From an uncultured virus (IMG/VR IMGVR_UViG_2860317346_000001) (Duplodnaviria; Heunggongvirae; Uroviricota; Caudoviricetes), in IMG/VR virus record IMGVR_UViG_2860317346_000001, positions 124,001 through 174,953 of that record: 50,953 nucleotides of DNA; one strand, written 5' to 3'. The translations under genes were made by a program, and so were the position numbers. Under the pieces are notes generated by a model. It was given only the letters and a program-made list of their open reading frames with translations, ran no database searches and was not told the DNA's origin. Position 1 is the stretch's first letter, and the number at the start of each line of letters is the position of its first letter. Below, one piece after another: positions 10,784 through 25,100 of this stretch.

Positions 10784-11095
10784 ATGGATTTACAACGCGC
10801 TTTGGACTACCTCGCGGACATGGGCGAGGTAAGAATTCGTAAGGACCACTTAGGGCACCCGTACCATGTCAGGGTGCAGGACCCGAATGGTAACCTCGGT
10901 TATCACGACGGAGCAGATGATAACGTAGAAGACGCTATCAAAGATTGTCTCGGTAACATATACGAAGAATTAGACGACTACATCGAAGGGTACAAAGCCC
11001 AACAGGACGATGTTAACGCGGTACTTAACGCTAAAGGTGTACCTAAAACGAGAGTTATACCCTACAGCGTTAGGATACCACTGAAGAAAAAGTGA
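10784..11095 (+). CDS. Tandem paralogue 1 (HicB-N-like motif)
   Basis: YLADMGEVRI...GADDNVEDAI. Confidence 0.75.
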   Translation: MDLQRALDYLADMGEVRIRKDHLGHPYHVRVQDPNGNLGYHDGADDNVEDAIKDCLGNIYEELDDYIEGYKAQQDDVNAVLNAKGVPKTRVIPYSVRIPLKKK

Positions 11096-11099
11096 TATA

Positions 11100-11387
11100 A
11101 TGGAAGGAATGGAAGAACAACAAGAAATGGAGACGTTAGAGAAGATGATGACGTTCCTCGCGCAGTATGGTGGTATCGTAATCGATTACAACGCCAATAA
11201 GCTTGAAGCGTACAGGTACAAGATAACCACGACTGACCCGTTCGCTGCGAACAAGAAGCGAGTAGGTCAAGGTGCTACACTAAGAGAAGCATGTGAGCAC
11301 ATACTTACAGGGATACACAGTACGTATACATCCATTAGGGATAATACCTCTAACGTCGTGTCAAGAATAGAAGGTATGAAACAATGA
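11100..11387 (+). CDS. Tandem paralogue 2 (HicB-N-like motif)
   Basis: FLAQYGGIVI...GQGATLREA. Confidence 0.75.
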   Translation: MEGMEEQQEMETLEKMMTFLAQYGGIVIDYNANKLEAYRYKITTTDPFAANKKRVGQGATLREACEHILTGIHSTYTSIRDNTSNVVSRIEGMKQ

Positions 11388-11638
11388 ACGTAGAGAAGCT
11401 TATAGAACACCTTGCCCCTATCGGGCCTATCATCATCAAGCAAATGGGTGATGGTAACATACACGTAAACGTCGGCTCTGGTATAGAAAGTGTAGGCGGT
11501 GTAGGTAAGGGCCTTGTCTCGGCGTTACAAGATGTCAGTAGACGAGTAAGGAGAGAACACTTTGAAGCGGCTACCTCGCATAATGCTATGGTAAGCGGTA
11601 TAGACCAGTACGTTAACGAAGGTGAAGATGATGAATGA
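11384..11638 (+). CDS. Tandem paralogue 3
   Basis: HLAPIGPIII...GVGKGLVSA. Confidence 0.7.
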   Translation: MNVEKLIEHLAPIGPIIIKQMGDGNIHVNVGSGIESVGGVGKGLVSALQDVSRRVRREHFEAATSHNAMVSGIDQYVNEGEDDE

Positions 11639-11897
11639 AGACGAATATGTAAGTAAAGTGATGGGTTTCGCTGTAGGTAGCGGACAAGTCTCAGGTACCT
11701 GCGATAGTATATACGGTAAGTGGAAGTACACACTCACATGTAACGACGAAACACTTCACAAGGAACACATTGGTATTGCCGATACACTTGAGGGTGCCGC
11801 TGAGAAACTTACGGCTAACATAAAACAAGCATACGTGAACATTGAAAGTGTTTCACAAAAGCTTGTAGCAACGATTGATGACATAAATGCACAGTAA
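11631..11897 (+). CDS. Tandem paralogue 4
   Basis: GIADTLEGAA; GGTGA RBS. Confidence 0.7.
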   Translation: MNEDEYVSKVMGFAVGSGQVSGTCDSIYGKWKYTLTCNDETLHKEHIGIADTLEGAAEKLTANIKQAYVNIESVSQKLVATIDDINAQ

Positions 11898-12105
11898 ATC
11901 ACACTTGTCAGACGCTCTACAGTGAGGGTTGACATATGTGTACGTTCGTTTTAGAAGGTCTCACAACGATGACCACGACCAATATTATATTAACATGAAG
12001 ATGTATAATCATACGAAGTCTTACGACAAGGGGGTAGTGGTGTATATTCGTAATATCCGACACTATTACATCGTCGTTGTGACAGCGTAATGTAATGGTG
12101 ATGGG

Positions 12106-12333
12106 ATGTTCAACATAGTTTTCAGAAAAAAAGTATCATACGTACTCATGATACTTGCGATATGGTGTATCTGTATGTACTTACACCACGTTAATTTGAT
12201 AAATGGCGAGTACTATACGACACTATTAAACGGATACATTATAGTGATGGCTATGACCATGACATACAACGCGTATGAGTATGCTGTTGTTGTAGACGTT
12301 AACTCAAACTTGTCAAAACGGAAGAGGGATTAA
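12106..12333 (+). CDS. Small membrane protein
   Basis: Two hydrophobic segments, GGTGA RBS. Confidence 0.6.
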   Translation: MFNIVFRKKVSYVLMILAIWCICMYLHHVNLINGEYYTTLLNGYIIVMAMTMTYNAYEYAVVVDVNSNLSKRKRD

Positions 12334-12336
12334 TAT

Positions 12337-12537
12337 ATGGTTGAAGAACGAACGTGTGAAAACTGCAAACACTTTAGAGCGAAAAATAAGAAAGGTATGC
12401 CCGAAGGTATCAAATCCATAACGTTTTTACTCACAGCGTGGGTTATATCGGTTGCACAATACGGCTGGACCAGTTTGTGGGCTCTAACAATCCTCGCGTG
12501 TATAATTTTGGTGTTACACAAAGGTAATTTAGAATGA
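12337..12537 (+). CDS. Small membrane protein with CxxCxH
   Basis: CENCKHF plus two TM segments. Confidence 0.6.
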   Translation: MVEERTCENCKHFRAKNKKGMPEGIKSITFLLTAWVISVAQYGWTSLWALTILACIILVLHKGNLE

Positions 12538-12759
12538 ATTCGGCAGGTTTAACAATACTGTTAATACTTAGGGACATGATGTACCTATGTCTGTGGAATG
12601 TGGTGCTACATATGTCACTTAGGTACATACGTATGTGTCGACATGACTAGGGTAAGGTATATATACTCACCATTACCACCTCATACACAATTACAAAGTA
12701 CATCAAAACGTAGATGGACGTGCGAGACACGAGAATACGGTACTCTGTTCACCTAATTA

Positions 12760-13108
12760 AACGGAAAACCAGCTTGGCTATGCACCACGGGATGTCATAG
12801 TGTAGACGAGCAGCCTGTCGGGACCTCCCATCGGCTCGCAACATAGATTGCGTTGAGGATGACAACGGTCTAAGCCGGGGCTGTCGTAGATAGTTGAAAG
12901 CGGTAAACATACTTGAGGTTACGGTCGTTTCGAACTGTCGATTCGTAAGCTAGCACACTAGAAGTGTAGTGTTGTGTTAGTAACGCCGGGAATCAAGTGA
13001 TATCGATACAAACAAGCGAAATACCTGTTAACACTTTACCGAAACTCTAACAGGAAGCAAGCATCTAGTTTTATGTGATTAGCACATAAGATTAGAGTAT
13101 ATTTTTTT
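12760..13108 (+). ncRNA. Putative large structured RNA ending in a terminator hairpin
   Basis: No long ORF, GC-richer, several stems; 14-bp hairpin 13064-13096 followed by a T-tract. Confidence 0.5.
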
Positions 13109-13321
13109 TACGTTTTATATATAATTATAGCGCGAAGCGCCCAATGCGAGTGCAACGAGGTGTGAGTTGACGAACACCGAGTGGGCAACGCAACGAGTTA
13201 TTTAAAATATAATAATACAACGACAAACTTGGAGTAAAAAGAACTAAAGTTCCGTACGTATACCAACGAACACAACGTACGTCAAATTGCTCAGGAGTAT
13301 AAACTTTTTTCAGGTGTTTTT

Positions 13322-13762
13322 GTGAAGTGTCAAAAGTGCGGTAGCGATAGCTTTACTTACGGTTCGATGGAGCCGGAAGACGATTGTATCGTTCAATCGA
13401 TTGAATGTGACAATTGTAAAGAAGAATATACACTCGTAGCGTATCCTAATTGGCAGGTGGAAGGTCAAGAGAACTTTTTATTTAATGTATTCGCGAAAGC
13501 TGATATGGTTAGGGACGTACAACTAGCAACGTATTCACCGACGTGTCCTAATAATTGTGATACGTGTAAAAAGTATGTCTGTGAAAACTGGGTGGATATA
13601 CCGGATAATGATGTATTATTAGGTAAAGTCCGAGCGAAAAATGCGGACGAAGCGATTAAATTCTTCGTACAACAAGTCGGGATACACAACACCGACAACA
13701 TGTACGCTGAAATTGTAGATGAACAAGCTACAGAAATTTTTCAGAAACCGTCAGAACAATAA
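13322..13762 (+). CDS. Zn-ribbon / Cys-rich protein
   Basis: CQKC...CDNC; CPNNCDTCKKYVC. Confidence 0.75.
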   Translation: MKCQKCGSDSFTYGSMEPEDDCIVQSIECDNCKEEYTLVAYPNWQVEGQENFLFNVFAKADMVRDVQLATYSPTCPNNCDTCKKYVCENWVDIPDNDVLLGKVRAKNADEAIKFFVQQVGIHNTDNMYAEIVDEQATEIFQKPSEQ

Positions 13763-13815
13763 AATTTATTTACTATCTACAAAATGGAAAAAATAACAAC
13801 ACGTAAGGTGATTAG

Positions 13816-14445
13816 ATGGAACATATAGAAACTGTAAACTTAAGCGCTATGATGGGCGATGCTGAAGGTGAGACTGGTGATGTAAACGTACCTACAGCTG
13901 TACCTGAAGGTGAAAAAGCTGCGACAACTGGAACGGCTACACCAAGTATTTCACTTGAATCAACAAACGAAGCAACGAACTCGATTGATGAAAGTGTAGA
14001 GGAAAACGTAGAAGGCGAAATCGTTATTGAAGTTGTACCAGAAGATAAAGGTGAAGAAATCACCAACGGTGCCGAATACGGTGTAGTGGTTGGTGGTGAA
14101 GTGGTAGTTAAAGAAATTGACATCGACTGGCATGAATTCGGTATGCCGAACGCGGCTGTGAAAAGGATTATGAAGTCTGTATCTGACGATAAGAATATTT
14201 CAGCTGACGCGGTTGAAAAGATGAAATCGTTAGCAATCGAATACATTATGGGTGTTACAAAAGATGCGAACGCTAGGTGTGAAGCTAAGAAAAGAAAGAC
14301 CATTATGGACAGAGATATCGAAGATACAGCAAACGGTATGCTATCGGATAAACTCTTAAGTATGGCGAGTAAGTCCGTGAAAGTGGAACTACTAACTAAC
14401 GAATTCGTGAAAACGATAGCAACTGAAATTGCAAACGTACAATAA
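13816..14445 (+). CDS. Archaeal histone-fold protein with long acidic N-terminal extension
   Basis: MPNAAVKRIMK...ISADA...KRKTIMDRDIE aligns with HMf-type histones; fold starts near 14143. Confidence 0.85.
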   Translation: MEHIETVNLSAMMGDAEGETGDVNVPTAVPEGEKAATTGTATPSISLESTNEATNSIDESVEENVEGEIVIEVVPEDKGEEITNGAEYGVVVGGEVVVKEIDIDWHEFGMPNAAVKRIMKSVSDDKNISADAVEKMKSLAIEYIMGVTKDANARCEAKKRKTIMDRDIEDTANGMLSDKLLSMASKSVKVELLTNEFVKTIATEIANVQ

Positions 14446-14476
14446 TTAAAAGCTACACATTACGATTGGTGGTTTA

Positions 14477-14740
14477 ATGTCAAGATACAAATTCGATAAA
14501 CAACACGAAAAGTTTAATTTAACGATTCAAATTGTAGCACAAGCCATGGTAATCGTAATCGTAAACGTTATTTATTTTTACAACTTCATTTCGCTATTCC
14601 ACTTCATACTCGTTGTGAACGCTCTTATGGTAACGTGTGTTTTATCTGAAGTACTTAGTGCTAAAGCTATACTAAGGTTATACAATGCATGTGATATGGC
14701 AGTTGACCACATCGAAGAAATGAAGAGAAAAAGAACGTAA
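14477..14740 (+). CDS. Small membrane protein
   Basis: Two TM segments. Confidence 0.65.
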   Translation: MSRYKFDKQHEKFNLTIQIVAQAMVIVIVNVIYFYNFISLFHFILVVNALMVTCVLSEVLSAKAILRLYNACDMAVDHIEEMKRKRT

Positions 14741-14909
14741 ATGTAATAAAGTATATAAACTATCTACAACTTTTTTCACCTGTAAAACGTGTAAATGGGA
14801 AAATATGATTATAACAGCATTCATTGCCGATACGTTATGTATAATACCGTTCGTTGCATTTTTGCTGTTTATGTACATCCCATATTACGCGATGTATAGG
14901 TAAGGTAAT

Positions 14910-15401
14910 TTGGTAGCAATAAACTCGAAGTCTGTAGGCAATTTAGGTGAAGCTAAGGTGTTATGTAAGTTCGTTGAACTTCGTATACCCGTTTATGTAC
15001 CGTTTGGTGACAATGAAAAGGCTGACCTTGTCGCAGATTTCGGTGGTAAATTGCAGCGGATACAGGTTAAAACGTCTATCAAAGCCGAAGATGGTAAGAT
15101 GATATTTGACTTGACCTCAACGTTAACGAAGAATAAAAAGTATATAAGGCGTAAATACGAAGATGGTGAAATCGACTATTTCGCATTGTATAACGTTACA
15201 CGTGACAAAATTTACCTCGTACCATACAGTGAACCGAAAACTGTTATGTTTATTAGATACGAACAACCTAAGAACCGTCAATCAAAAAAGGTACACTTAG
15301 AAGAAGATTATCTGATAGATAACGTACTCGGAAAAATCGATGAAAATTACGTTACAATTAACGAATTCGTTAATTGTACAGTAGATGAGGTAGTTGCATG
15401 A
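14910..15401 (+). CDS. PD-(D/E)XK endonuclease (group I intron-associated / I-Ssp6803I-like), free-standing
   Basis: GNLGEAKV...PFGDNEKADLV...RIQVKT...Y..GEIDYFALY. Confidence 0.8.
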   Translation: MVAINSKSVGNLGEAKVLCKFVELRIPVYVPFGDNEKADLVADFGGKLQRIQVKTSIKAEDGKMIFDLTSTLTKNKKYIRRKYEDGEIDYFALYNVTRDKIYLVPYSEPKTVMFIRYEQPKNRQSKKVHLEEDYLIDNVLGKIDENYVTINEFVNCTVDEVVA

Positions 15402-15757
15402 ATTATTTTGCGTTGTTAAAAGGGATAAACGCTGCTTTAAAGAAAGGTACTGAGTTTTCGACGAAAATCGTGATGGTTATGATTTTCATGGCGGGTTTAA
15501 TTCTGTTTATGTTTAGTGGTAATATGCCACAAGCTATAATGCTCGTGCTAATGGAAATCGGTGACATTATATGTACTATTACCGTTACATTCATGATATT
15601 ATACTGTATCTGTGAAGGTGTCGAAATCGCTAAAGAAAGATACGACCAATACGTCGCTGAATTCAAAAAAGCAGATGAATGTACGTGTGATCGTGAATGT
15701 AAGTGTTTACCGGAACCAGAAGCAGTATCCGAAGAAATTAAAGCGCAGTCGGCGTGA
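15398..15757 (+). CDS. Membrane protein
   Basis: Two TM segments, Cys-rich tail. Confidence 0.7.
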   Translation: MNYFALLKGINAALKKGTEFSTKIVMVMIFMAGLILFMFSGNMPQAIMLVLMEIGDIICTITVTFMILYCICEGVEIAKERYDQYVAEFKKADECTCDRECKCLPEPEAVSEEIKAQSA

Positions 15758-15761
15758 TTAA

Positions 15762-16073
15762 ATGTATAAATGGTGTATACTAAGAGCGTTCAGTGACTTT
15801 ATTAACCGAGCGTATAACGCTACGGGTTTTTTAATAGTTATCTTTGGTTTGTGTATACTCATTGCGATATTTGCATTACCAAACGATAGCTCAACACTGA
15901 GTTTCATAATAAAAGCGGGTGAACGTCCAGCTGGTATATTGGGTTCAACGTTACTCGCATTAATGGGTATTAAAGTTTTGTTATTCGTATCAGGTTACCG
16001 AAAACGGATAGAATTAGCGTGTATGAATTGTTCACGAAACGCTAACTGTGACGATGACGTCTACTGTAAGTGA
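15762..16073 (+). CDS. Membrane protein
   Basis: Two TM segments, Cys-rich tail. Confidence 0.7.
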   Translation: MYKWCILRAFSDFINRAYNATGFLIVIFGLCILIAIFALPNDSSTLSFIIKAGERPAGILGSTLLALMGIKVLLFVSGYRKRIELACMNCSRNANCDDDVYCK

Positions 16074-16341
16074 TAACATGTTAACGATGTGGAACTGGCT
16101 AAATTTAGCAAGAAACGTACTGGGTTACATCCTCAGTATATTAACGGCTATAATCGTGTTTGTACTATGTATGATGCTGTTATACTTCAGTTTGACGTGG
16201 ACTCTAAATGACCCAGGTTACGAAATATGCTTCATGGCTATCAAAATGTGCTTACGTGCTATGATAGTGTTCGTGTGGCCGTACTTGATTTTACAATATT
16301 TCAGGAAACCTATCCTGAATAGATGTAAATCATCTATTTAA
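16048..16341 (+). CDS. Membrane protein
   Basis: Two TM segments. Confidence 0.65.
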   Translation: MTMTSTVSDNMLTMWNWLNLARNVLGYILSILTAIIVFVLCMMLLYFSLTWTLNDPGYEICFMAIKMCLRAMIVFVWPYLILQYFRKPILNRCKSSI

Positions 16342-16343
16342 TG

Positions 16344-16826
16344 TGACAACCAATATGCGTCAACGTAAGGTTTAGGTTAGATTTTCCTTACGGTGCTGCG
16401 GTTGTCAGGGATTTTTGATATGTTCGGTGTGAATAGGGTGAAGACGTTCCCAAACAACCCTATTCACACTTTTCGTGGCGACGCTTGGAGACGTCCAGTA
16501 TGTACAGTACATACAGTTGCCGCTACTTGGTCGTGTATTTACGACCCAGGTTGCCGGGTGTCCTGAAGTAAACACTCGTTATGGTAGGTTATGGTAAGTT
16601 CGGAACGTTCAAAGTCTTTGAGGACCTGTCCGGGGTTGGGTGGAGTAATTAACCACCCGTGACCTCGGCGACTTCCGGCACCTCATCATTAAATGCAGAG
16701 ACCTGTACCTCCGCTAAATAGTACAGGGTAATAGAGTGAACCCACGAGGATACGGTCAGAGATTGAATTGTATACTCGCTAGAGGAGTATTTTAGGGATT
16801 CATGATGCTCGATATAGCGTGGGTTC
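16344..16826 (+). ncRNA. Putative large structured RNA(s)
   Basis: Consecutive stems, e.g. 16344-51/16400-07, 16427-39/16457-69 (13 bp), 16738-46/16818-26. Confidence 0.55.
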
Positions 16827-16853
16827 GGCTATTTAACAATAGGTGTATAGTTA

Positions 16854-17000
16854 ATGACGTTTGGTATACTACCGAAAGATTACTCTGATGAAGAGAAAAA
16901 ACAAAAGTTAAAAAAGCAGAACGAAGAAGCTGCACACCGAAGACGACAGGCCATAGGTAACCCGTATGGTATGTTTGCATCAGTGATATGTACAGGATAA
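16854..17000 (+). CDS. 48-aa charged peptide ending SVICTG
   Basis: Translated by hand; AGGTG RBS. Confidence 0.7.
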   Translation: MTFGILPKDYSDEEKKQKLKKQNEEAAHRRRQAIGNPYGMFASVICTG

Positions 17001-17014
17001 ATTAGGTGATACAA

Positions 17015-17155
17015 ATGGGATATTCAGAAGAACACGACTACATCTCTAAACAGAGAGAAAAAATGAAAGCTAAAGAACAAGAACAGGAAGAATCAAGACA
17101 GCAAGCAGTACATAATGATTCAGCTGAATGTGCGTGTGTGATTTGTGTATGCTAG
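17015..17155 (+). CDS. 46-aa charged peptide ending CACVICVC
   Basis: Translated by hand; AGGTGAT RBS. Confidence 0.75.
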   Translation: MGYSEEHDYISKQREKMKAKEQEQEESRQQAVHNDSAECACVICVC

Positions 17156-17331
17156 ATGGAATCGTAAGTGACGCTGAAGTTCAAGCGGCAAAAGAAGCGG
17201 CTGAACAAAGACAACTCGAAGCTGAAGCTAGAGCTGCGAAAGAAGCAGCTAAACAAAGAGAGCAAGAAGCTAAACGAAAAAAAGATGCTGTAACGGATAC
17301 AGTACTAATGACTGTAATATGTGGTTGCTGA
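17149..17331 (+). CDS. ~60-aa helical peptide ending TVICGC
   Basis: EAAK-rich; overlaps the previous stop; its stop abuts tRNA-Asn. Confidence 0.7.
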   Translation: MLDGIVSDAEVQAAKEAAEQRQLEAEARAAKEAAKQREQEAKRKKDAVTDTVLMTVICGC

Positions 17332-17404
17332 GCTCCTGTGGCGCAGTAGGTAGCGCGTCGGACTGTTAATCCGAAGGTCGCAGGTTCGAGCCCTGCCGGG
17401 AGCG
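17332..17404 (+). tRNA. tRNA-Asn(GTT)
   Basis: Canonical cloverleaf; anticodon arm TCGGA-CTGTTAA-TCCGA. Confidence 0.95.
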
Positions 17405-17783
17405 CTTAAACACGGTCCGCAGTTAAGTTTGCGGAAATAGTAGGCATTTATCTCCAAAAAATGTTTTCTTAACTTCTTCTATAGGTAATATAACTCTAAA
17501 ATACTTTAATCTTGTTTCTCTCAAAATAACACATACAGCGGTACACACTGTAATGGGTGGGTGTACCGCCTATTAATTTAAGTCTGTTGACAAACATGTC
17601 ATATCATATCACTTCCAATCGTGTGGTTCTTTTTACCCGGTGAGACGGTTTTTGGACCACACATGAATATTTTTTATGGCGTTCGTAAAACGCACGGGTT
17701 TCTCTTTTTACCGTGCGTTTGCCGTCATGATACGATACTATTGAGAATGTATAAATACACCCGGTGTAACCCACCGGGGTTTT

Positions 17784-17854
17784 GATGACGTGGTCTAGTT
17801 AGGTTTGGGCTCCCGTGCGAACGGGGACAATGGGTTCGACTCCCATCGTTATCA
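17784..17854 (+). ncRNA. tRNA-like RNA with the anticodon loop replaced by a GCGA tetraloop
   Basis: Acceptor GATGACG/CGTTATC, T arm ATGGG-TTCGACT-CCCAT, stem CCCGT-GCGA-ACGGG. Confidence 0.75.
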
Positions 17855-18061
17855 CTGTTCTTTTCAGTTTATTGGGTCGGTTAATAAATTTAGACACCAA
17901 CGTGAGTCAAATCACGAGCCGACTGCGAAAACCACGACTTCGCAATACAAAATCGTGGCCGGAAATGGTGTTATTCACACTACCTTTCTGAAAGGTTTTG
18001 TTGTTTTGTCACGTTACAACTAAATGAAACGTGGTGGTGTCGAACATACCCTTTCCACCCT

Positions 18062-18325
18062 CGGCGTGTAGTTCAGAGGTAGAACAGTGGACTGTAGAGT
18101 GTATGGAATCACAATCTAATCAAAAGTATAAATCTAAATCTAAATATAACGAAAAATTAAAATTAAAAGTAAGAAGATAAATGTAGATATGAATCGAAGT
18201 AATGAATTGCTATTTATTATGTTCGTACAAACATAAAAATCATAGTTAAATTAAATAATGTTTCAAACAGTGATTCTATACATGCAGAAATCCACATGTC
18301 ACCGGTTCAAGTCCGGTCACGCCGA
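18062..18325 (+). tRNA. tRNA-Tyr(GTA) with 192-nt BHB intron (18098-18289)
   Basis: Exons form a full cloverleaf; helix CTGT/GCAG with AGA and AAA bulges; 14-bp intron stem. Confidence 0.9.
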
Positions 18326-18341
18326 CTTCTGTTATTACTTT

Positions 18342-18474
18342 TGACGTGTACCCTCAAAGGTAGAGGGGCTGATGCCGATATAATGTCCTAGACGCTAGAA
18401 CGTAGAACGTAACTAGTGCGCGTGGCATGAATCAAACCAGCAGGTTATAGGTTCAAGTCCTATCACGTCAACCA
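18342..18474 (+). tRNA. tRNA-like RNA with ~60-nt anticodon insertion and encoded CCA; isotype unclear
   Basis: TGACGTG/CACGTCA-ACCA; T arm ATAGG-TTCAAGT-CCTAT; no clean BHB. Confidence 0.65.
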
Positions 18475-18479
18475 TTTTC

Positions 18480-18613
18480 CGGCGCGTAGCTCAACAAGGT
18501 AGAGTAGCGGTGGGTTGTAATATACGTGTTTCCCGCGATTCGTAATCTACGGTTACGTGGGATAGCGTGTACGTAGATACCGCAGGTTGCAGGTTCAATT
18601 CCTGTCGCGTCGA
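18480..18613 (+). tRNA. tRNA-like RNA with long hairpin insertion in the anticodon loop; isotype unclear
   Basis: CGGCGCG/CGCGTCG; anticodon stem GCGGT/ACCGC; T arm GCAGG-TTCAATT-CCTGT. Confidence 0.7.
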
Positions 18614-18663
18614 CCTTTTCTTTAAATATTATGGTGTATTAGCGTTAGCTATGGTGGTTATAT

Positions 18664-19116
18664 ATGATTAGAATTAGTGAAATTGAGAAACACGCTACAC
18701 CTGTATCGGCTGATAAAGCTAGAGAGGTGTGGAATGCTATACATGACTCAGGTGTTCCCATCGAGATATCTAACGAACTAAAAACTAAATTAGTTGCGGC
18801 TATGCTCGATAAAGGGTTCAAACCGTGTGGTAAAAATGAATACTACATCGATGCGACTGAAACACTAAACAAAGAATTCTACGATATGGTGTGTAAAAAA
18901 TACAAACACCAAGACGTGGATATATCGGCTGTTTACAGTATGGTAGCATTCACTAACGATACGTTTGTATCAAATGACATTACGATTACCGAGGTTGGAA
19001 GAAACGGTGACCATACATTTCCAATGTTAACGAATAAATGCGGTATGAGTATCGTTTATGATTTCGTTAAAGTTGATGTATTCGCCGAAAAATTCGGTGA
19101 TAAATATGGAAACTAG
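18664..19116 (+). CDS. Hypothetical protein
   Basis: ORF with GGTGG RBS. Confidence 0.75.
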   Translation: MIRISEIEKHATPVSADKAREVWNAIHDSGVPIEISNELKTKLVAAMLDKGFKPCGKNEYYIDATETLNKEFYDMVCKKYKHQDVDISAVYSMVAFTNDTFVSNDITITEVGRNGDHTFPMLTNKCGMSIVYDFVKVDVFAEKFGDKYGN

Positions 19117-19696
19117 TATTAACGTAGCGTTCCCCTTTGATATCGAAATACGAGGGAAAATGTTCGTGGTTGACTGCATCGGTGGAACAATCACTTGTGA
19201 TGGTGAAAATGTCACACTTGCTCAGCTTCTATTCTGGTACCATAATAATCGAGACTGGGTTGTTGTAACCGAAGATAAACGATTGCGATTCAGCAAACGA
19301 AAATCGTTTAAAACTATGTCCGAAGCGGTATCTAAAATGGAGTATTTCGTTGCTATGTATGCTGATAACGATGGTGTGCATTTGTTTTCATATAAATCCG
19401 AACCTAAAGCGTTGAAAGCGTTAGAACAATTTCTTGATTACTGTATAGATAGTGGTATATCCACATCGAACAGAATATCCGATAACGTATTTCTCAACTG
19501 GTTAGATACGTATGCTAACACAGTTTCATTTAATTCATTTTCACTATCAGGTGTATTACTAACTATCGACTGCAGGTCCGATGATAGTCAGAAATACGTA
19601 TCCGTTAGACGAAACGTTTATAAGTATCTCGAAAAAATATCGGGTTACGTGGAAAATAGAGGTGTCGAACCTTTTGAATTACGACTGGTGGAATGA
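19106..19696 (+). CDS. Hypothetical protein
   Basis: GGTGA RBS before ATG 19106. Confidence 0.75.
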   Translation: METSINVAFPFDIEIRGKMFVVDCIGGTITCDGENVTLAQLLFWYHNNRDWVVVTEDKRLRFSKRKSFKTMSEAVSKMEYFVAMYADNDGVHLFSYKSEPKALKALEQFLDYCIDSGISTSNRISDNVFLNWLDTYANTVSFNSFSLSGVLLTIDCRSDDSQKYVSVRRNVYKYLEKISGYVENRGVEPFELRLVE

Positions 19697-20583
19697 TGGA
19701 AGCTTTCAGAGTTGGAACCAAGTGTGTGTTTGAGAATTGTATCGACGGTGAGATATTAACTACACCAGAAAAGTTTGGGTTCCTGAAAAGTGACATTAAC
19801 GTGAAAACACTCAATTTAAAACCGGAAGATGTTGTTAAAAGTTTATGGCTACGATATAACGGGTTACAATCAGACATTCACATCTTATCTGATGACATTG
19901 GTAACGCCCTTGAATGTTCACACGAACACTACATTGGAGCCGAACCGACGATACTGCATCTTACACGGTCATCACATAGTATCGTACGAATGGTTGAAAA
20001 ACCAGTGCGATATCACGTCGTTAAGATGTGTGGTGCTGATAAACCCGAATTTATAGCAACCGGTGTGTCATCACACGCTGATAAGACACCGGGTGACATG
20101 GACATTACAAACATCGGTTTGGTTGGGTGTATGCGTTTAAATCGTAACGTACATTACGGTGACATTGAATTAGTAACTAAATCGGGTAATTGTTATCTCG
20201 ATTTAACCGGTGTTGATGTCGCTAAACTTGAGGTTAGAACACAAACCGGTGACATTCATTTGAAGTTATCTAACTCGGAAAGTTTGTATTATATTAATTT
20301 ATATACAAAATCAGGTAATATATACGTTGAATTCGAAAACGACTCCGAGCAACGTGTATTTATGTCACTGTCGGCTGGAAGCGGTAACGTAACTTTCGTA
20401 ACGGGTAGCGAGTGTATATTATCCACTTCACCTACGACCGATATTACAAAACATTCCGGGTTTAAACGAACACGAGATTTAAAATTCGCGAATGGTAATC
20501 TGACTAAAGCGGAACGTAGATATGATGTTCAAATTAAAGTACACGCCCCGATTGGGGCACTAACGTGTATGAGTAAGATATAA
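19693..20583 (+). CDS. DUF4097-like beta-strand repeat protein
   Basis: Repeats TKSGNCYL, TQTGDIHL, TKSGNIYV, AGSGNVTF. Confidence 0.6.
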   Translation: MMEAFRVGTKCVFENCIDGEILTTPEKFGFLKSDINVKTLNLKPEDVVKSLWLRYNGLQSDIHILSDDIGNALECSHEHYIGAEPTILHLTRSSHSIVRMVEKPVRYHVVKMCGADKPEFIATGVSSHADKTPGDMDITNIGLVGCMRLNRNVHYGDIELVTKSGNCYLDLTGVDVAKLEVRTQTGDIHLKLSNSESLYYINLYTKSGNIYVEFENDSEQRVFMSLSAGSGNVTFVTGSECILSTSPTTDITKHSGFKRTRDLKFANGNLTKAERRYDVQIKVHAPIGALTCMSKI

Positions 20584-20594
20584 ATAGTGTATAC

Positions 20595-20683
20595 GATGGC
20601 GTTTATTTACGGGCACAGTTACTCCGAAATTACGCCATTCATGCAATCGGTTCGGTTCATTGCCGAACTGCCCGTCCTTTTTT
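20595..20683 (+). ncRNA. Intergenic pseudoknot-like element
   Basis: 20596-602/20632-38 crosses 20609-15/20669-75; inner hairpin 20650-68; T-tract. Confidence 0.4.
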
Positions 20684-20725
20684 AACGATTAACAAAATTT
20701 ACAACATATTTGATAGGTGGTCTAC

Positions 20726-21259
20726 ATGGAAAATGGTACTATAAACGATGTTACAGCGAAATTATTAGCAGGTTTCGATGAAAAATGTAAACAATTAAAC
20801 GAATTACACACAAATATAGCCGTACACAAGGAGATTCTCTTATCTACAGGTATAGCACCCGAAATCGTTAATAAAATAATGAAAGGTATATCGTTAGGGT
20901 TTGTACCGAGTTCGGAACCAACGGTACATACAGATTGTATCATTGACGTTAAAACCAACGAAGAAATTGAGCTTGACACTATAAAATACGATGATACTAT
21001 CGTACATGGTGTGTTTTCGTATAGAACGGATAATACCCTACCTTACGCTTTAAACTCACCCGGTTTATCTGCTGCGATGTTGAACAAAAATAGGAGTACG
21101 TACCTCAAAGTTAGTGAAGTTAGTGCTGTTTTAGGTGTATCACAACATAAAATCAGGAAGTGGTTACGAGAAAATAAAATGGCTGGCTTCAAAGCTAGAT
21201 TTTTGAATCTATGGTTCGTACCAAGAACCGAAGTTGAAAGAATTATCGGGATTATTTAA
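20726..21259 (+). CDS. Protein with C-terminal excisionase/MerR-type HTH
   Basis: YLKVSEVSAVLGVSQHKIRKWLRE...WFVPRTEVE. Confidence 0.75.
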   Translation: MENGTINDVTAKLLAGFDEKCKQLNELHTNIAVHKEILLSTGIAPEIVNKIMKGISLGFVPSSEPTVHTDCIIDVKTNEEIELDTIKYDDTIVHGVFSYRTDNTLPYALNSPGLSAAMLNKNRSTYLKVSEVSAVLGVSQHKIRKWLRENKMAGFKARFLNLWFVPRTEVERIIGII

Positions 21260-21267
21260 GTGAAATC

Positions 21268-22080
21268 ATGTACGTACACGGTGTATCTGATTTTGAAGTT
21301 GAACGCACTGAATTCACTTTAAATCAAACACGGAAAAGCTGTGATGTTATCATTGACACACTTGGTTCGGATATTACAGTTATGGTGGACCCGAATATCG
21401 ATAATCCGATTGAAGGTTACGCTGAATATATAAAATATCCAACACAGGCAACGTGTGGTGATAGAAGCTACGGTATACACGAGCTTACACCATGTCCTGT
21501 TGCTAAAATGGACTACTTCAATAATTTCGAGTACTACATGATGGCAAACGGTTACGCTTATGCTAATCAGGTGCGATATAATAGAGTCCCTGTTCGTGGT
21601 TTAGAAACGATTATACGAATTAACCCGAACGTTAAATTCGGATTCGTTAAAATACATACAGCCGGTGGTAACGTTAGAGCCGATTTAACCGATGTACATT
21701 ACCGTGAACTTAAAATCGAAGCCGACCACGGTAGTGTTGACGTTATTATGAATGACGCTAACTGTACAAGTGGTAAGTTTAAATCGTATATTGTAGGTAA
21801 TCGTGATGTTAAAGTCGTTGCGACCCATGATATGCCCGACTACCGAAACATGATAATTTCCGGGGGTTCAATCGATTATGATATCACCGGTAAATGCAGC
21901 ATGTGGGCTAGAGTATACCACATTTACGGTAAAATCATGTTCAACGATGAACAGGTAAATGATTCAATGCGAACTAATTTTGCTAACGTTGATTACGATG
22001 GCGTAGATATAACATACGATTACCGACAGGTAACGGAATTACAAGCCGAAGAACACGTTTACGTACATGGCAGGAGATGA
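21268..22080 (+). CDS. DUF4097-like beta-repeat protein, probable paralogue of 19693-20583
   Basis: RINPNVKFG..TAGGNVRADLT matches RLNRNVHYG..TKSGNCYLDLT. Confidence 0.6.
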   Translation: MYVHGVSDFEVERTEFTLNQTRKSCDVIIDTLGSDITVMVDPNIDNPIEGYAEYIKYPTQATCGDRSYGIHELTPCPVAKMDYFNNFEYYMMANGYAYANQVRYNRVPVRGLETIIRINPNVKFGFVKIHTAGGNVRADLTDVHYRELKIEADHGSVDVIMNDANCTSGKFKSYIVGNRDVKVVATHDMPDYRNMIISGGSIDYDITGKCSMWARVYHIYGKIMFNDEQVNDSMRTNFANVDYDGVDITYDYRQVTELQAEEHVYVHGRR

Positions 22081-22349
22081 TAACGATGAAATACATTATA
22101 ACTGAAGAAAACCTTAGAAACTTAGAAGACATATTAACGGACGAACAGTTTGACCAACTTGCGTGTGCTAACGCTAGACACGGTGCGGTATTGAAAATAA
22201 ACTGGCCAGATTCACAATTATGTACAGTTTGTCAGAATGCATGTTTTGGTTCAGATGACCAAACGTGTTACTGTGATGCGTCCATGACAGGACCTAACGG
22301 TATGGAATGTCCAGACTACATTGAAAAGGATAACGATAACGTACGATAA
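22077..22349 (+). CDS. Cys-rich small protein
   Basis: CTVCQNAC...C.C...CPDY. Confidence 0.7.
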   Translation: MITMKYIITEENLRNLEDILTDEQFDQLACANARHGAVLKINWPDSQLCTVCQNACFGSDDQTCYCDASMTGPNGMECPDYIEKDNDNVR

Positions 22350-22397
22350 TGTTCGTTAAACTATTTATATTATCTATTATTTTTTTACGGTGATACT

Positions 22398-22664
22398 ATG
22401 TTACTTGGTAAACGAATCACCGCTGGTTTCTTTCTCATCGATGACGATGACGTTGAAAAGGTTCACGACCAACTAAAGAAATACGATTTCGAAACTTATC
22501 TAGTTGGTATTTATCCGTATTTTACAACGGGTCGAAAAGTCTGGTTTTTGTGTAACGCAGACGTATCAATCGTTGAACAGGCGGTAAAAGAAATTGCGAC
22601 ACTATTTGGCAATATTAACTTTAAAATCAAAGATTACACCTCAACGACAGGTGCGATATACTGA
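22398..22664 (+). CDS. Hypothetical protein
   Basis: GGTGA RBS. Confidence 0.7.
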   Translation: MLLGKRITAGFFLIDDDDVEKVHDQLKKYDFETYLVGIYPYFTTGRKVWFLCNADVSIVEQAVKEIATLFGNINFKIKDYTSTTGAIY

Positions 22665-22674
22665 TGTGATTATC

Positions 22675-22935
22675 ATGGTTAAATTATGTCTGTTGAACAT
22701 CGAATGTAAACCCGACGGTGCTAACCCTCATTGTATCACGGCTCTTTTAAAGGCATACACGGGTGAATGTTGGTTTATATCGATGGTCGATAAAACGGTT
22801 CAACTTTTAGTTGCTGGCTACGAGGTTGATTCTGTTCCAACGGATATCATTGGAACATTATTAGGTGCTAAACGAATTACTATAAACGAATTTGTACCTG
22901 GACAACAAAAAACGGTAGAGATTTCTAATGAATAG
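22675..22935 (+). CDS. Hypothetical protein
   Basis: Fills the operon gap. Confidence 0.6.
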   Translation: MVKLCLLNIECKPDGANPHCITALLKAYTGECWFISMVDKTVQLLVAGYEVDSVPTDIIGTLLGAKRITINEFVPGQQKTVEISNE

Positions 22936-23368
22936 ATTTTACCGTGAGTTTGAAGGAAAATACATCAACATGAAAGTGAAATCTACATTTCCACGAATTG
23001 GTGGTTTAGAAATGCATATTATCGGATATTACGATGACGTATTCGATAATAACTGGCGACACGACAGATTTAGAACTAATATCGCTAGACGGTATGCATT
23101 GGATAAAGCTGTAGACAGAATACCCGAATTATCGGGTACGGGAATTTTAATTGACATCGCAAACGGCTATTATGACGTTGAAGTAGCTGATGATGATTGT
23201 GTTATAGTCGGATACACTAAACACGGATTCGTTGCGGTTAACTACGGTGACCTTCGAAATTTAGACGGAAGTGTACCCGATTTCTGTCATTTCATTAGAG
23301 CAACGGACTCCGATGAATTTTTCGATGTAGATTTAGTTAGAAAATTGAACATGTGTGTTACTGTATGA
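22928..23368 (+). CDS. Hypothetical protein
   Basis: Overlapping operon ORF. Confidence 0.7.
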   Translation: MNRFYREFEGKYINMKVKSTFPRIGGLEMHIIGYYDDVFDNNWRHDRFRTNIARRYALDKAVDRIPELSGTGILIDIANGYYDVEVADDDCVIVGYTKHGFVAVNYGDLRNLDGSVPDFCHFIRATDSDEFFDVDLVRKLNMCVTV

Positions 23369-23591
23369 AAGCGGTTGATAAATTTATAAGCCGGTTCAAA
23401 ACGGTTGATATGTTCAGTAAAGTAAATTTCTTTTATTTAGCGTACCTATTCGTCGGAATAGCTGCGTACGAATATTACATAGGAAATTATTTCGAATACG
23501 GCGGTTGTACGTTTATAGCTGGAACCTGCATGGCTTCAGCGGTGTCGTTGACCATTCTCGTACTTAAAGATGAATAAAATATGGTGAAAAC

Positions 23592-25100
23592 ATGGAAAGT
23601 TATAAAGTTAAAAACTTCATCAAGGCGATAGCCGAGAAGCTCTTACCGGGATTAGTCGACTCGTACAAGTTTACGCATTTTTTAGGTTATCCACCGGATA
23701 CCGAGTATGTATACCTGTACATGATGGCCCGACCTAACAGTGAAATGACCAAATCGGAACAAGTCGTGTTTTTCGGACTGCAGTACTACATCAAGGAATA
23801 CCTTGAAGGTGTAGTAGTAACGCACGAAATGATTGACGAGTTAGCTCCAATGATAAGAGCTTACGGATACCCACAATTTAACGAAGAAGGTTGGAGATAC
23901 ATTGTTGACAACCACGGTGGAAAGTTACCGGTTGAAATTAAAGCGGTACCGGAAGGAAGCTACGTTAATAGGGGTAACGTGTTGATGTCAATTGTCAATA
24001 CCGACCCGAAATGTTACTGGTTACCATCATACTTGGAAACGTTGTTGCTAGAGATGTGGTACACCTGTACAGTGGCAACCCACGCTAAAGAACTTAGAAG
24101 CTTAATCGAACCTTACGTGCAGGAATCATGTGACGATTTATTCGACATCAACTTCAAAGTGCACAATTTCGGTGCGAGGGCTGGACCAGCTCCTGAAGCC
24201 ACGAGACTTGCAGGTATGGCGCACTTAACGTCATTCGTTGGAACTGATACCTTCGATAGCGTTTATGCTGCGAAAAAGTATTACAACGAGGATAACGCCG
24301 GTATTTCAATCAGCGCGGCAGAACACAGTACCATCACATCATGGGGTACTGGTAAAGCTAACGAAACCGCAGCGTACGCTAACATGCTTGATAAATTCGG
24401 ACACGAGCCGTTGTTCGCTTGTGTTAGTGATTCATACGATTACGAGTATGCAGTTGAGCACATCTGACTCGGTGAGTTAAAAGAAAAATTGTTATCTGTA
24501 CCAGCAAAGCTTATCATAAGACCTGACAGTGGTGACCCTGTACAATCAACGATATTCGCCGTTGATATGATACTTGAAAAACTTGGGTACGAATACAACC
24601 AAAAAGGCTACAAAATAGCTAAAGGTGACAAAGCCGGTGTTATACTTGGTGATTCTGTAACACCTAGAGTTATTCAAGAAGTTATGTCGTACTTAATGGA
24701 AAACAAAATCAGTGCGTCGATGGTTAACTTCGGTATGGGTGGTGCACTAATGACTGGTGATAAAACCAGAGATACATACGGTTTCACAATGAAGTGTTCA
24801 GCTGTATGTAGGGATGGTAGCTGGTATGAGTGTTTCAAGATGCCTAAAGGTAGTGCATTCAAAACTTCACTTGGTGGTATGTTCCACGTTGTTAAAGACA
24901 TGGGATTCTATCACACTACGGTTAATCATACCGATGAAGAATGCGACGAATTACAAACTGTATTCAAAAATGGTGTTATTGTAAGAAACGAAACGTTAAC
25001 CAACATCAGAAACAGGTTAAGTAGTGAAATAATTCTCGGTATGAGTAGGACCGATAAAGAAGCTAGAGAAGTTCCAACCGAAGTGGCGCAACCGTGTTAA
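23592..25100 (+). CDS. nadV: Nicotinamide phosphoribosyltransferase interrupted by in-frame TGA at 24465-24467
   Basis: DSYK, FFGLQY, HNFGARA, AAEHS, VSDSYD, IRPDSGD, FGMGG; both ORFs are in the same frame. Confidence 0.85.

What the first reader, a model, noticed from the sequence alone, without database searches (positions are those of the whole stretch)
17784..17854. tRNA with no anticodon: loop replaced by a GNRA tetraloop
Acceptor, D, T and 5-bp anticodon stems have tRNA geometry, but the loop is the 4-nt GCGA. A clean swap to a stable tetraloop looks selected rather than decayed. It cannot decode normally. It could be an RNase P/Z processing signal for neighbouring RNAs, or a decoy resistant to anticodon nucleases.
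Basis: partly seen in the sequence, partly recalled or inferred. Interest (0 to 1): 0.7.

Follow-up and report, generated by a model that had tools for sequence, protein, structure and literature searches.

The report
Sealed-anticodon tRNA look-alike in archaeal virus
A large virus, probably of a methane-producing archaeon, carries in its small tRNA gene row a well-formed tRNA-shaped gene whose codon-reading loop is closed into a four-base hairpin, so it cannot read codons; whether it is kept as a cutting signal or tRNA mimic or is a recently disabled tRNA gene could not be settled.

Summary
Window 17784-17854 (+) is a 71-nt tRNA-shaped gene. It scores 34.8 bits on Rfam tRNA (cut-off 29), and ARAGORN calls it 'tRNA-???'. 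All 21 stem pairs are intact and the loop is GCGA (17817-17820) where 7 nt belong. A separate assembly of the one public run that holds it, at depth 573, shows no indel.

The setting is a 175-kb virus record. Its tRNAs are of the archaeal type: tRNA-Tyr has C1-G72, a short variable arm and a strict bulge-helix-bulge intron of 192 nt, and tRNA-Arg has anticodon GCG. The virus also encodes a methanogen-type histone.

The row reads tRNA-Asn, this element, intron-bearing tRNA-Tyr, then two further tRNA-shaped genes. Each of those two holds a hairpin of about 60 nt in the anticodon loop and lacks a strict splice motif.

No relative of the element turned up in any collection, so selection is untested.

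Best reading (0.45): a non-decoding tRNA-shaped RNA cut out by RNase P and tRNase Z, serving as a processing module or tRNA mimic. Main rival (0.38): a tRNA gene disabled by a 3-nt loop deletion.

Sealed-loop tRNA look-alikes recur in 6 of 83 other viral records I searched. Earlier notes of this scan report them in at least 8 other genomes.

The parts
17784..17854 (+). tRNA-shaped gene with a sealed anticodon arm (the finding)
   Evidence: ARAGORN 'tRNA-???'. Rfam RF00005 34.8 bits, above the 29-bit cut-off. The MFE fold is the cloverleaf.
17812..17825 (+). Anticodon-arm hairpin: stem CCCGU/ACGGG closing the 4-nt loop GCGA (17817-17820)
   Evidence: Read from the sequence. The Rfam alignment shows 4 nt where the model has 7.
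17830..17854 (+). T arm (AUGGG UUCGACU CCCAU), 3' acceptor strand and discriminator A. This is the part that RNase P, tRNase Z and the CCA-adding enzyme are known to read.
   Evidence: Sequence. T-arm scan of the whole record.
17750..17757 (+). TATAAATA, a TATA-box-like word about 30 nt upstream of the first base of the element. Weak evidence for an own promoter.
   Evidence: The word occurs 10 times in the 175-kb record, so it may be chance.
17760..17783 (+). G+C-rich hairpin CCCGGUG-UAACC-CACCGGG followed by GUUUU, ending at the base before the element
   Evidence: Listed first among the terminator-like sites of window 9001-29000. Part of the folded spacer.
17406..17783 (+). 378-nt non-coding spacer between tRNA-Asn and the element. 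Its 3' 264 nt form a row of stable hairpins.
   Evidence: Fold of 17520-17783: -82 kcal/mol, z -4.0, 0 of 200 shuffles as good. It holds only short ORFs.
17855..18061 (+). 207-nt spacer between the element and tRNA-Tyr. T-rich runs lie at 17861-17864 and about 17995-18010.
   Evidence: Fold z -1.7, not significant. Sequence.
17332..17404 (+). Ordinary tRNA-Asn(GUU). It starts at the base after the stop codon of the small ORF 17128-17331.
   Evidence: ARAGORN and Rfam 73.8 bits. ORF list.
18062..18326 (+). tRNA-Tyr(GUA) of archaeal type with a 192-nt intron (18098-18289) in a strict bulge-helix-bulge motif at position 37/38
   Evidence: ARAGORN with introns allowed. Fold. The BHB scan gives 5-bp stem | 4 bp CUGU/GCAG | 3-nt bulges AGA and AAA | 14-bp helix.
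18342..18474 (+). X4: tRNA-shaped gene with an insert of about 60 nt in the anticodon loop and an encoded CCA. The motif is BHB-like (centre AUGC/GCAU, 5' bulge CGA) but has a 9-nt 3' bulge.
   Evidence: T-arm scan. Fold. The strict BHB scan found none. Its body is 66-71% identical to Tyr and X5.
18480..18613 (+). X5: tRNA-shaped gene (C1-G72, G3.U70, A73) with 67 nt where the anticodon loop belongs. The motif is BHB-like with two extra G on the 5' strand.
   Evidence: Rfam 44.2 bits with 67 nt in place of 7. Fold. BHB scan. Its body is 72% identical to tRNA-Tyr.

Best explanation
The element is a real gene for a tRNA-shaped RNA that cannot read codons and works as an RNA-processing module or tRNA mimic.

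Proposed course:
1. It is transcribed on the + strand with the tRNA row, either as part of the long same-strand transcript or from the TATA-like word at 17750-17757 (inferred).
2. It folds into the cloverleaf and L-shape (computed).
3. Host RNase P cuts at 17783/17784 and tRNase Z cuts after A17854, and CCA is added. These enzymes read the acceptor stem, T arm and elbow, which are intact, and do not read the anticodon loop. This step is inferred from established knowledge of these enzymes.
4. The arm is closed by a U-A pair and a GCGA (GNRA-type) tetraloop. There is therefore no anticodon and no loop for anticodon-loop enzymes to act on (shown by sequence).
5. The cuts split the transcript. 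They free the strongly folded 378-nt RNA upstream and the 207-nt piece downstream, and leave a stable 71-nt tRNA-shaped RNA (inferred).

It most likely arose from a tRNA gene whose anticodon loop lost three bases.
For: - It is a good tRNA body. It scores 34.8 bits on RF00005 despite the missing loop. By direct reading, 21 of 21 stem pairs are intact, the T loop is UUCGACU with G53-C61, and the D loop has GG. The cloverleaf is the MFE fold.
- It is not an assembly slip as far as can be told.
- The locus looks built for tRNA-type punctuation. tRNA-Asn begins at the base after a stop codon. The spacer in front of the element folds with z -4.0. All genes run on one strand.
- Of the five tRNA-shaped genes in this row (a sixth, tRNA-Arg, lies 23 kb downstream), three cannot be read as standard tRNAs. 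In all three the oddity sits in the anticodon loop while acceptor, D and T stems stay fully paired. Random decay would be expected to strike the roughly 60-nt body more often than the 7-nt loop.
- Sealed or missing anticodon loops recur elsewhere. They make up 6 of 379 RF00005 matches, in 6 of 83 other viral records. One 67-nt form is kept in three diverged records, with an invariant arm CCGCA-AUA-UGCGG, at a gene boundary outside the tRNA array. Another is the only tRNA match of a complete 62-kb record.
- As a lead only: earlier notes of this scan describe a row of the same make-up in a methanogen virus, with two mimics conserved in relatives.
Against: - No relative of this element was found, so nothing shows purifying selection or covariation for this copy.
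- No RNA evidence was obtained.
- Real tRNAs flank it and could punctuate the transcript on their own.
- The downstream spacer is not significantly structured (z -1.7).
- Several tertiary-interaction positions are off the tRNA norm: U at 21, A at the last variable position opposite G15, and two G.U pairs in the D stem. The Rfam score is low for a tRNA.
- The record shows some decay. NAMPT has an in-frame TGA at a conserved Trp, while TGA is otherwise a normal stop.
- The sealed loops seen in other viruses differ from one another (AUA, UGA, GAUC, whole arm missing). That looks more like recurrent deletion than one designed motif.
Confidence: 0.45

Rival explanations
1. It is a recently disabled tRNA gene, a pseudogene. 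A single 3-nt deletion in the anticodon loop sealed the arm, and the body has not yet had time to decay. Given a pyrimidine at position 32 and U33, the only natural single-deletion path to GCGA starts from a loop Y-U-N-G-C-G-A. Any cutting by RNase P/Z is a by-product.
For: - There is no evidence of conservation.
- The Rfam score is low, and the G.U pairs and off-norm tertiary positions fit relaxed constraint.
- NAMPT in the same record carries a nonsense codon at a conserved Trp.
- The two neighbours X4 and X5 also have indel-like flaws beside their splice motifs.
- Short-loop tRNA hits with unrelated loop sequences turn up sporadically in other viral tRNA arrays.
- One earlier scan note found such a case to be an ordinary disabled copy (e1-5840905; not checked by me).
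Against: - All 21 stem pairs, the T loop and the elbow bases are intact.
- The loop left behind is of the stable GNRA type, a 1 in 32 chance for a random tetramer.
- Three anticodon-region lesions with no stem lesion among five tRNA-shaped genes is unlikely under neutral decay.
- No parent tRNA could be named. The body is only 47-57% identical to the record's other tRNAs. Only T-arm words match phage tRNAs. The Ala-like loop path does not fit the acceptor stem, which has G4.U69 and not G3.U70.
Confidence: 0.38
2. It is a tRNA-shaped decoy. After processing, the stable RNA binds a host factor that reads tRNA shape, such as a tRNA-cutting defence nuclease or a modification or maturation enzyme. 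Having no anticodon loop, it is not cut or used, so it soaks the factor up.
For: - The L-shape elements are intact and the loop is sealed.
- The record carries other counter-defence-type genes: a Tad2-like domain, and NAMPT, though the latter has an in-frame stop.
- Papers in the library describe defence nucleases that remove tRNA anticodon arms. I saw the abstract of PMC12445682 in the search listing and one passage of PMC13434031.
Against: - Anticodon nucleases known to me read bases of the anticodon loop (general knowledge), so an RNA without the loop should bind poorly.
- The nucleases in those papers are bacterial, and this host is probably archaeal.
- A single gene copy would have to compete with the whole tRNA pool.
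- Nothing in the data points to a partner.
Confidence: 0.08
3. It is a chargeable but non-decoding aminoacyl carrier. A synthetase that ignores the anticodon loads it, and the aminoacyl group is used outside the ribosome, for instance on the small Cys-ended peptides encoded just upstream.
For: The acceptor stem and A73 are intact. Three small ORFs with Cys-rich C-termini lie at 16854-17331, and a radical-SAM gene lies at 26473-27414.
Against: - The acceptor stem matches no anticodon-independent identity set that I know. G.U is at 4:69 and not 3:70, there is no long variable arm, and there is no C1-G72.
- No aminoacyl-tRNA-dependent transferase family was found among the 146 ORFs scanned against Pfam.
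Confidence: 0.04
4. It is a sequencing or assembly artefact of a normal tRNA gene.
For: None beyond the prior that short indels occur in assemblies.
Against: A separate assembly (Logan contigs) of the holder run carries the same sequence at word depth 573, with no differences or gaps across 17300-18700.
Confidence: 0.02

Closest known systems
t-elements of plant mitochondria (tRNA-like structures that guide RNase P and RNase Z to make mRNA ends; PMC1920247, abstract seen in the search listing)
   Same: They are non-decoding tRNA-like folds within longer transcripts. What matters in them is the acceptor/T-arm part, read by the tRNA end-processing enzymes.
   Different: t-elements are usually partial cloverleaves next to mRNAs in an organelle. 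This element is a complete four-arm cloverleaf with a sealed arm, it sits inside a viral tRNA row, and no cutting has been shown.
tRNA-like structure upstream of 5S rRNA in Haloferax volcanii, cut by tRNase Z
   Same: It is an archaeal precedent for a non-decoding tRNA-like element used as a processing signal.
   Different: It is cellular, part of the rRNA operon and of a different sequence. Membership cannot be tested here.
Canonical tRNA (Rfam RF00005) and tRNA pseudogenes in viral tRNA arrays
   Same: It scores above the family's cut-off and has all four arms, the T loop and the elbow bases.
   Different: The defining 7-nt anticodon loop with U33 is absent; 4 nt stand in its place.
Archaeal intron-bearing tRNA genes (bulge-helix-bulge at 37/38), such as its neighbour tRNA-Tyr
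   Same: Same row and same host machinery. The anticodon region is again the place of change.
   Different: The element has no insert and no BHB motif, so nothing could be spliced to restore a loop.
mascRNA / MEN-beta tRNA-like RNAs (Rfam RF01684)
   Same: They are tRNA-like RNAs cut out of a longer transcript by RNase P and RNase Z, with a reduced anticodon arm.
   Different: The element scores 17.6 bits against a cut-off of 42.5. Those RNAs are eukaryotic nuclear RNAs, so this is not a member.
Engineered 'tRNA scaffolds', in which the anticodon arm is replaced by a cargo hairpin (recalled from memory, Ponchon and Dardel 2007; not read here)
   Same: X4, X5 and this element look like natural versions, this one being the scaffold without cargo. 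The tRNA body gives processing and stability.
   Different: The scaffolds are man-made. No evidence shows that the virus uses the body in this way.

Membership tests
tRNA (RF00005), functional decoder | Cloverleaf with acceptor, D, anticodon and T arms, scoring above the family cut-off | tested here: met
   34.8 bits against 29, model positions 1-71. 21 of 21 stem pairs.
tRNA (RF00005), functional decoder | 7-nt anticodon loop with U33 and a three-base anticodon | tested here: not met
   The loop is GCGA, 4 nt. ARAGORN can name no amino acid.
tRNA (RF00005), functional decoder | Conserved tertiary-interaction bases (U8, A14, G18 G19, A21, R15-Y48, T loop UUCRANY) | tested here: inconclusive
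   U8, A14, G18 G19 and UUCGACU are present. Position 21 is U, and the last variable base is A opposite G15 (read; numbering assigned by me).
tRNA-like processing signal (t-element type) | Intact acceptor-stem/T-arm domain able to be read by RNase P and tRNase Z | tested here: met
   7-bp acceptor stem, 5-bp T stem, canonical T loop, discriminator A.
tRNA-like processing signal (t-element type) | Cutting at its 5' and 3' ends in vivo or in vitro, creating the ends of neighbouring RNAs | not testable with these tools
   No RNA run was available. This needs end mapping or enzyme assays.
tRNA-like processing signal (t-element type) | Kept by selection, shown by conservation of the fold in relatives | tested here: inconclusive
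   No relative was found in viral, metagenome or genome collections.
tRNA pseudogene | Traceable to a functional parent tRNA by one disabling lesion | tested here: inconclusive
   The lesion is compatible with one 3-nt deletion. No parent was found: 47-57% identity to the record's own tRNAs, and only T-arm words match phage tRNAs.
Archaeal BHB-intron tRNA | Bulge-helix-bulge motif (two 3-nt bulges 4 bp apart) at the interrupted site | tested here: not met
   The scan found a strict motif only in tRNA-Tyr (18092/18284). It found none that uses the element's arm.
mascRNA-menRNA (RF01684) | Score at or above the family's gathering cut-off | tested here: not met
   17.6 bits against 42.5.
   Not among the 13 matches listed at E up to 10 for 17200-18800.

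The most novel reading that the evidence does not exclude
The element is one of three purpose-built, non-decoding RNAs on tRNA bodies in a methanogen-virus RNA row. The virus uses the host's tRNA machinery as a factory for stable small RNAs: RNase P, tRNase Z and the CCA-adding enzyme, plus the splicing endonuclease and ligase for the 192-nt tRNA-Tyr intron, which would come out as an RNA ring. X4 and X5 carry hairpin cargos of about 60 nt. The tetraloop form is the bare scaffold. It acts as a tRNA-shaped competitor or as the punctuation mark that frees the folded 378-nt RNA upstream.
Probability: 0.3. Interest if true: 0.8.

Novelty: new variant of a known kind. Interest (0 to 1): 0.5.

Why it matters
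If the element is kept by selection, some viruses encode tRNA-shaped RNAs for jobs other than translation. Candidate jobs are cutting their own transcripts, stabilising small RNAs, or mimicking tRNA towards host enzymes.

Routine annotation would miss or mislabel such a class. ARAGORN prints '???', and the default Rfam scan of the window skipped this one.

The case sits in an unusual setting: a 175-kb virus with no close relative found in the collections searched. It combines archaeal-type tRNAs, a strict BHB intron and a methanogen-type histone with gene content typical of jumbo phages. A simple RNA-end-mapping experiment on one culture would decide between a working module and a dead gene.

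If it is only a disabled tRNA gene, it is ordinary. The recurrence of sealed anticodon arms in viral tRNA arrays would then call for a mutational explanation.

Tried and rejected
**Searches for relatives of the element**
- Exact and degenerate DNA patterns found nothing real. The 28-mer had 0 hits in viral contigs. The 14-mer of the arm gave 121 matches in 120 loci, none a homologue; one, L124, is the variable arm of a class II tRNA. The arm plus T-arm pattern had 0 hits in metagenome contigs and 0 in genome contigs. The T-arm plus acceptor 21-mer gave 1 hit in metagenome contigs, a chance match with no tRNA.
- Patterns from tRNA-Tyr and from X5 had 0 hits in viral contigs.

**Searches for relatives of the virus**
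- The neighbour proteins 18664-19116 and 19693-20583 have no relatives in viral contigs.
- PolB reaches at most 30% identity in viral contigs and 27% to isolates. Terminase reaches 25%.
- NrdD found nothing in genome contigs.

**Other checks**
- Sequencing runs: one DNA holder, and no RNA holder listed, so expression is untested.
- Homologues of the PD-(D/E)XK gene led to 14 loci with large tRNA arrays. These belong to bacteriophages, shown by a tmRNA and a group I intron. ARAGORN's '600-nt introns' there are probably two neighbouring tRNAs joined.
- Brute-force deletion scanning of X4 and X5 with ARAGORN was too permissive to name an anticodon.
- I considered TGA-to-Trp recoding with X4 as an opal suppressor. 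I dropped it as a general code because TGA ends 53 of 191 ORFs and only 2 ORF pairs merge if TGA is read through.
- I looked for complementarity of the spacers, the inserts and the intron to the rest of the record. Only chance-level words turned up.
- Bacterial promoter and terminator consensus sites are not enriched.
- I looked for a box C/D reading of UGAUGA at the 5' end. No matching box D lies in place (by eye).
- Earlier-findings look-ups by place and by sequence found no look-alike.

Full report
**What is there**

Window 17784-17854 on the + strand reads GAUGACG-UG-GUCU-AGUUAGGUUU-GGGC-U-CCCGU-GCGA-ACGGG-GACA-AUGGG-UUCGACU-CCCAU-CGUUAUC-A. That is a full tRNA cloverleaf. The acceptor stem has 7 of 7 pairs (one is G4.U69). 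The D stem has 4 of 4 (two G.U), with GG in its loop. The anticodon stem has 5 of 5 and the T stem 5 of 5, with a canonical T loop and a discriminator A. Where the 7-nt anticodon loop belongs there are four bases, GCGA (17817-17820), closed by a U-A pair.

ARAGORN calls it 'tRNA-???' with a two-base 'anticodon'. The Rfam tRNA model gives 34.8 bits against a cut-off of 29, over all 71 model positions, with 4 nt in place of 7. The default whole-window scan did not list it, presumably because of the speed filters. The cloverleaf is the minimum-energy fold: -26.7 kcal/mol, 40% of the ensemble, z -2.1.

**Is it an assembly slip?**

Only one public run holds the stretch, and it is probably the source of this DNA. 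Logan's own contigs of that run cover 17300-18700 in one 80-kb piece at word depth 573, with no differing letters and no gaps. This is a second assembly of the same data, not a second sample. Still, a 3-nt indel error at that depth is unlikely.

**Where it lies**

The window is the last 51 kb of a 174,953-bp virus record classed as a provirus. The whole record holds six T-arm-bearing elements, and five of them stand in one row:
- tRNA-Asn(GUU) at 17332-17404
- the element
- tRNA-Tyr(GUA) at 18062-18326
- 'X4' at 18342-18474
- 'X5' at 18480-18613

The sixth, tRNA-Arg(GCG), is at 41053.

tRNA-Tyr has C1-G72, A73 and a short variable region. Its 192-nt intron (18098-18289) lies in a textbook bulge-helix-bulge motif at position 37/38: the 5-bp anticodon stem, a 4-bp helix CUGU/GCAG, 3-nt bulges AGA and AAA, then a 14-bp helix. 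By established knowledge, C1-G72 with a short variable arm marks archaeal and eukaryal tRNA-Tyr, the BHB motif is the substrate of the archaeal splicing endonuclease, and anticodon GCG for Arg is the archaeal habit.

The histone-fold ORF 13816-14445 has as its best solved relative 8bdk, 'DNA-binding protein HmvA'. The match covers the fold and its C-terminal extension, at E 3.9e-9. That this is a methanogen histone is my recollection of the name. An Hjc-type resolvase and an anaerobic NrdD are also present. I therefore take the host to be an archaeon, probably a methanogen.

Three things point the other way or remain odd. The gene content otherwise looks like a jumbo phage: split multisubunit RNA polymerase pieces, a Tad2-like domain, NAMPT, and RCC1 and Kelch repeat proteins. 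The PD-(D/E)XK endonuclease at 14910-15401 is 65% identical to genes that sit in tRNA arrays of bacteriophages. Bacterial promoter and terminator consensus sites are not enriched.

**The neighbours X4 and X5**

Both keep fully paired acceptor, D and T stems, and both carry a folded insert of about 60 nt where the anticodon loop should be. Their bodies are 66-72% identical to tRNA-Tyr and to each other. The element is only 47-57% identical to any tRNA of the record.

The strict BHB scan found a good motif only in tRNA-Tyr. By eye, X4 has a BHB-like centre (AUGC/GCAU with a CGA bulge) but 9 nt where the 3-nt 3' bulge should be. X5 has a BHB-like core with two extra G on the 5' strand, and cutting by the usual rule would leave a loop of 9-11 nt containing UUGUAAA.

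Only some endonuclease types cut non-canonical motifs (abstract of PMC5829648, seen in the listing), and I do not know the host's type. X4 and X5 are therefore one of three things: tRNAs with relaxed introns, decayed copies, or tRNA-shaped carriers of other RNA. This leaves three of the five genes in the row unreadable as standard tRNAs, each with its oddity in the anticodon region and an intact body.

**Conservation**

I could not test it. Every route to relatives came back empty:
- exact and degenerate patterns of the element in viral, metagenome and genome contigs
- patterns of tRNA-Tyr and X5
- flanking proteins
- hallmark proteins: PolB at most 30%, terminase 25%

**Is the phenomenon isolated?**

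No. I searched 83 other viral records with RF00005: 5, 30 and 48, giving 379 listed matches. I inspected only matches of 69 nt or less that span the whole model. I found:
- a 67-nt form with arm CCGCA-AUA-UGCGG in three related records, conserved while the downstream gene differs
- a 61-nt form with the whole anticodon arm missing, upstream of a c-di-GMP riboswitch
- a 69-nt form, GUGGA-UGA-UCCAU, at 54.9 bits, the only tRNA match of a complete 62-kb record
- a 66-nt form, CUUC-GAUC-GAAG, inside a 19-tRNA array

That is 6 of 379 matches, in 6 of 83 records, from four unrelated families. It is a lower bound, because I did not open longer matches. One other short match (G033) had a normal loop and a short D arm. 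One (G036) scored below the cut-off.

Earlier notes of this scan report sealed-anticodon tRNA look-alikes in at least eight other genomes. One describes a row of the same make-up in a methanogen virus: one normal tRNA, one with an ordinary intron and three non-decoders, two of them conserved in relatives. These are unchecked leads. No sequence look-alike to my window was on record.

In the papers searched (passages read) I found no description of virus-encoded sealed-anticodon tRNA genes. The nearest were plant mitochondrial t-elements (PMC1920247, abstract in the listing), tmRNA, and tRNAs that lose the anticodon arm through defence nucleases (PMC12445682, abstract in the listing; PMC13434031, one passage).

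**How it most likely works**

The parts that RNase P, tRNase Z and the CCA-adding enzyme read are all intact, so the RNA should be cut out and finished like a tRNA. This is inferred from established knowledge and was not tested. The sealed arm rules out decoding, which the sequence shows.

The locus looks made for tRNA-type punctuation. All genes run on one strand. tRNA-Asn starts at the base after the stop codon of ORF 17128-17331. The 264 nt before the element fold far better than shuffles, z -4.0 with 0 of 200 as good, and end in a G+C-rich hairpin plus GUUUU at the base before the element. A TATAAATA word lies 30 nt upstream, but it occurs 10 times in the record and is weak evidence for an own promoter.

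I therefore put first, at 0.45, that the element is a maintained non-decoding tRNA-shaped module. Its cutting frees the neighbouring RNAs and leaves a stable tRNA mimic.

**The main rival**

At 0.38, it is a tRNA gene disabled by one 3-nt deletion. Several observations favour this:
- the lack of any conservation evidence
- the low model score
- the off-norm bases (U21, and A opposite G15)
- the G.U-rich D stem
- the flawed neighbours X4 and X5
- decay elsewhere in the record: NAMPT (23592-25100) has one in-frame TGA exactly where a solved homologue has Trp, while TGA is an ordinary stop in 53 of 191 ORFs and only two ORF pairs merge if it is read through
- the variety of loops in other viruses, which looks like recurrent deletion

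Three observations count against it. There are three anticodon-region changes and no stem lesion among five genes. All 21 pairs are intact. No parent tRNA can be named; the one natural single-deletion path to GCGA implies an Ala-type loop, which the acceptor stem does not fit.

The other readings are a decoy for tRNA-binding defence or maturation factors (0.08), an aminoacyl carrier for non-ribosomal use (0.04) and an artefact (0.02). They are set out under the rival explanations.

**Verdict**

The element is a new variant of a known kind, namely tRNA-like non-decoding elements and disabled tRNA genes, set in a virus that is unusual in itself. It is moderately interesting on its own. It would be more so if the whole row proves to be a set of tRNA-bodied small RNAs. 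One RNA-end-mapping experiment would decide.

Noticed in passing
window 18062-18326: A virus-encoded tRNA-Tyr(GUA) of archaeal type (C1-G72, short variable arm) with a 192-nt, AT-rich intron in a strict bulge-helix-bulge motif at 37/38. Cutting by the usual rule gives the loop CUGUAGA (G37). The excised intron would be expected to form an RNA ring.
   Followed up: partly
window 18342-18474 and 18480-18613: Two tRNA-shaped genes, paralogous to tRNA-Tyr (66-72% body identity), each with a hairpin insert of about 60 nt in the anticodon loop and an imperfect BHB motif. X4 has an encoded CCA. X5 combines C1-G72, G3.U70 and A73.
   Followed up: partly
window 23592-25100: NAMPT is split by a single in-frame TGA (24465-24467) that aligns with a conserved Trp of solved homologue 7yqo. 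TGA is otherwise a normal stop in this record. This is either a TGG-to-TGA nonsense mutation or local read-through.
   Followed up: partly
G000:C1:118979-119950 (minus strand, upstream of the window): This is the second and only other pair of same-frame ORFs (142 and 178 aa) that would merge if TGA were read through.
   Followed up: no
window 16854-17331: Three tandem small ORFs (48, 49 and 67 aa) have charged helical middles and Cys-rich C-termini (…VICTG, …CACVICVC, …VICGC). The stop codon of the last abuts tRNA-Asn. They may be modified peptides or lipid-anchored proteins. A radical-SAM gene lies at 26473-27414.
   Followed up: no
window 13816-14445: A 209-aa protein whose C-terminal 100 residues are a histone fold plus extension. 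Its best solved relative is 8bdk 'HmvA' (E 3.9e-9).
   Followed up: partly
window 14910-15401: A PD-(D/E)XK endonuclease (PF11645) up to 65% identical to genes that sit among the tRNA genes of large bacteriophages. That is surprisingly close for a virus with archaeal-type tRNAs.
   Followed up: partly
window 2885-4534; G000:C1:61160-62008; G000:C1:85470-102716: Pieces of a multisubunit RNA polymerase (Rpb1 domain 2, Rpb2 domain 6) lie in separate ORFs, as in jumbo phages. One ORF of 5,748 codons is also present.
   Followed up: no
G003:C1:85088-85154, G004:C1:16418-16484, G028:C1:81443-81509: A 67-nt tRNA look-alike with the arm CCGCA-AUA-UGCGG is conserved in three related phage records. It lies outside their tRNA arrays, just upstream of a variable gene slot that holds a GIY-YIG-like ORF in two of the three.
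   Followed up: partly
G029:C1:206885-206945; G053:C1:7912-7980; G058:C1:7291-7356: Three more unrelated viral tRNA look-alikes without a usable anticodon loop. In the first the arm is missing altogether and a c-di-GMP-I riboswitch follows. The second has the 3-nt loop UGA and is the only tRNA match of a complete 62-kb record. The third has the 4-nt loop GAUC and lies inside a 19-tRNA array.
   Followed up: partly
window 11734-13321 and G000:C1:21018-22649, 123048-124854: Three further stretches of 1.6-1.8 kb have no ORF of 80 codons or more. I did not examine them for RNA genes.
   Followed up: no
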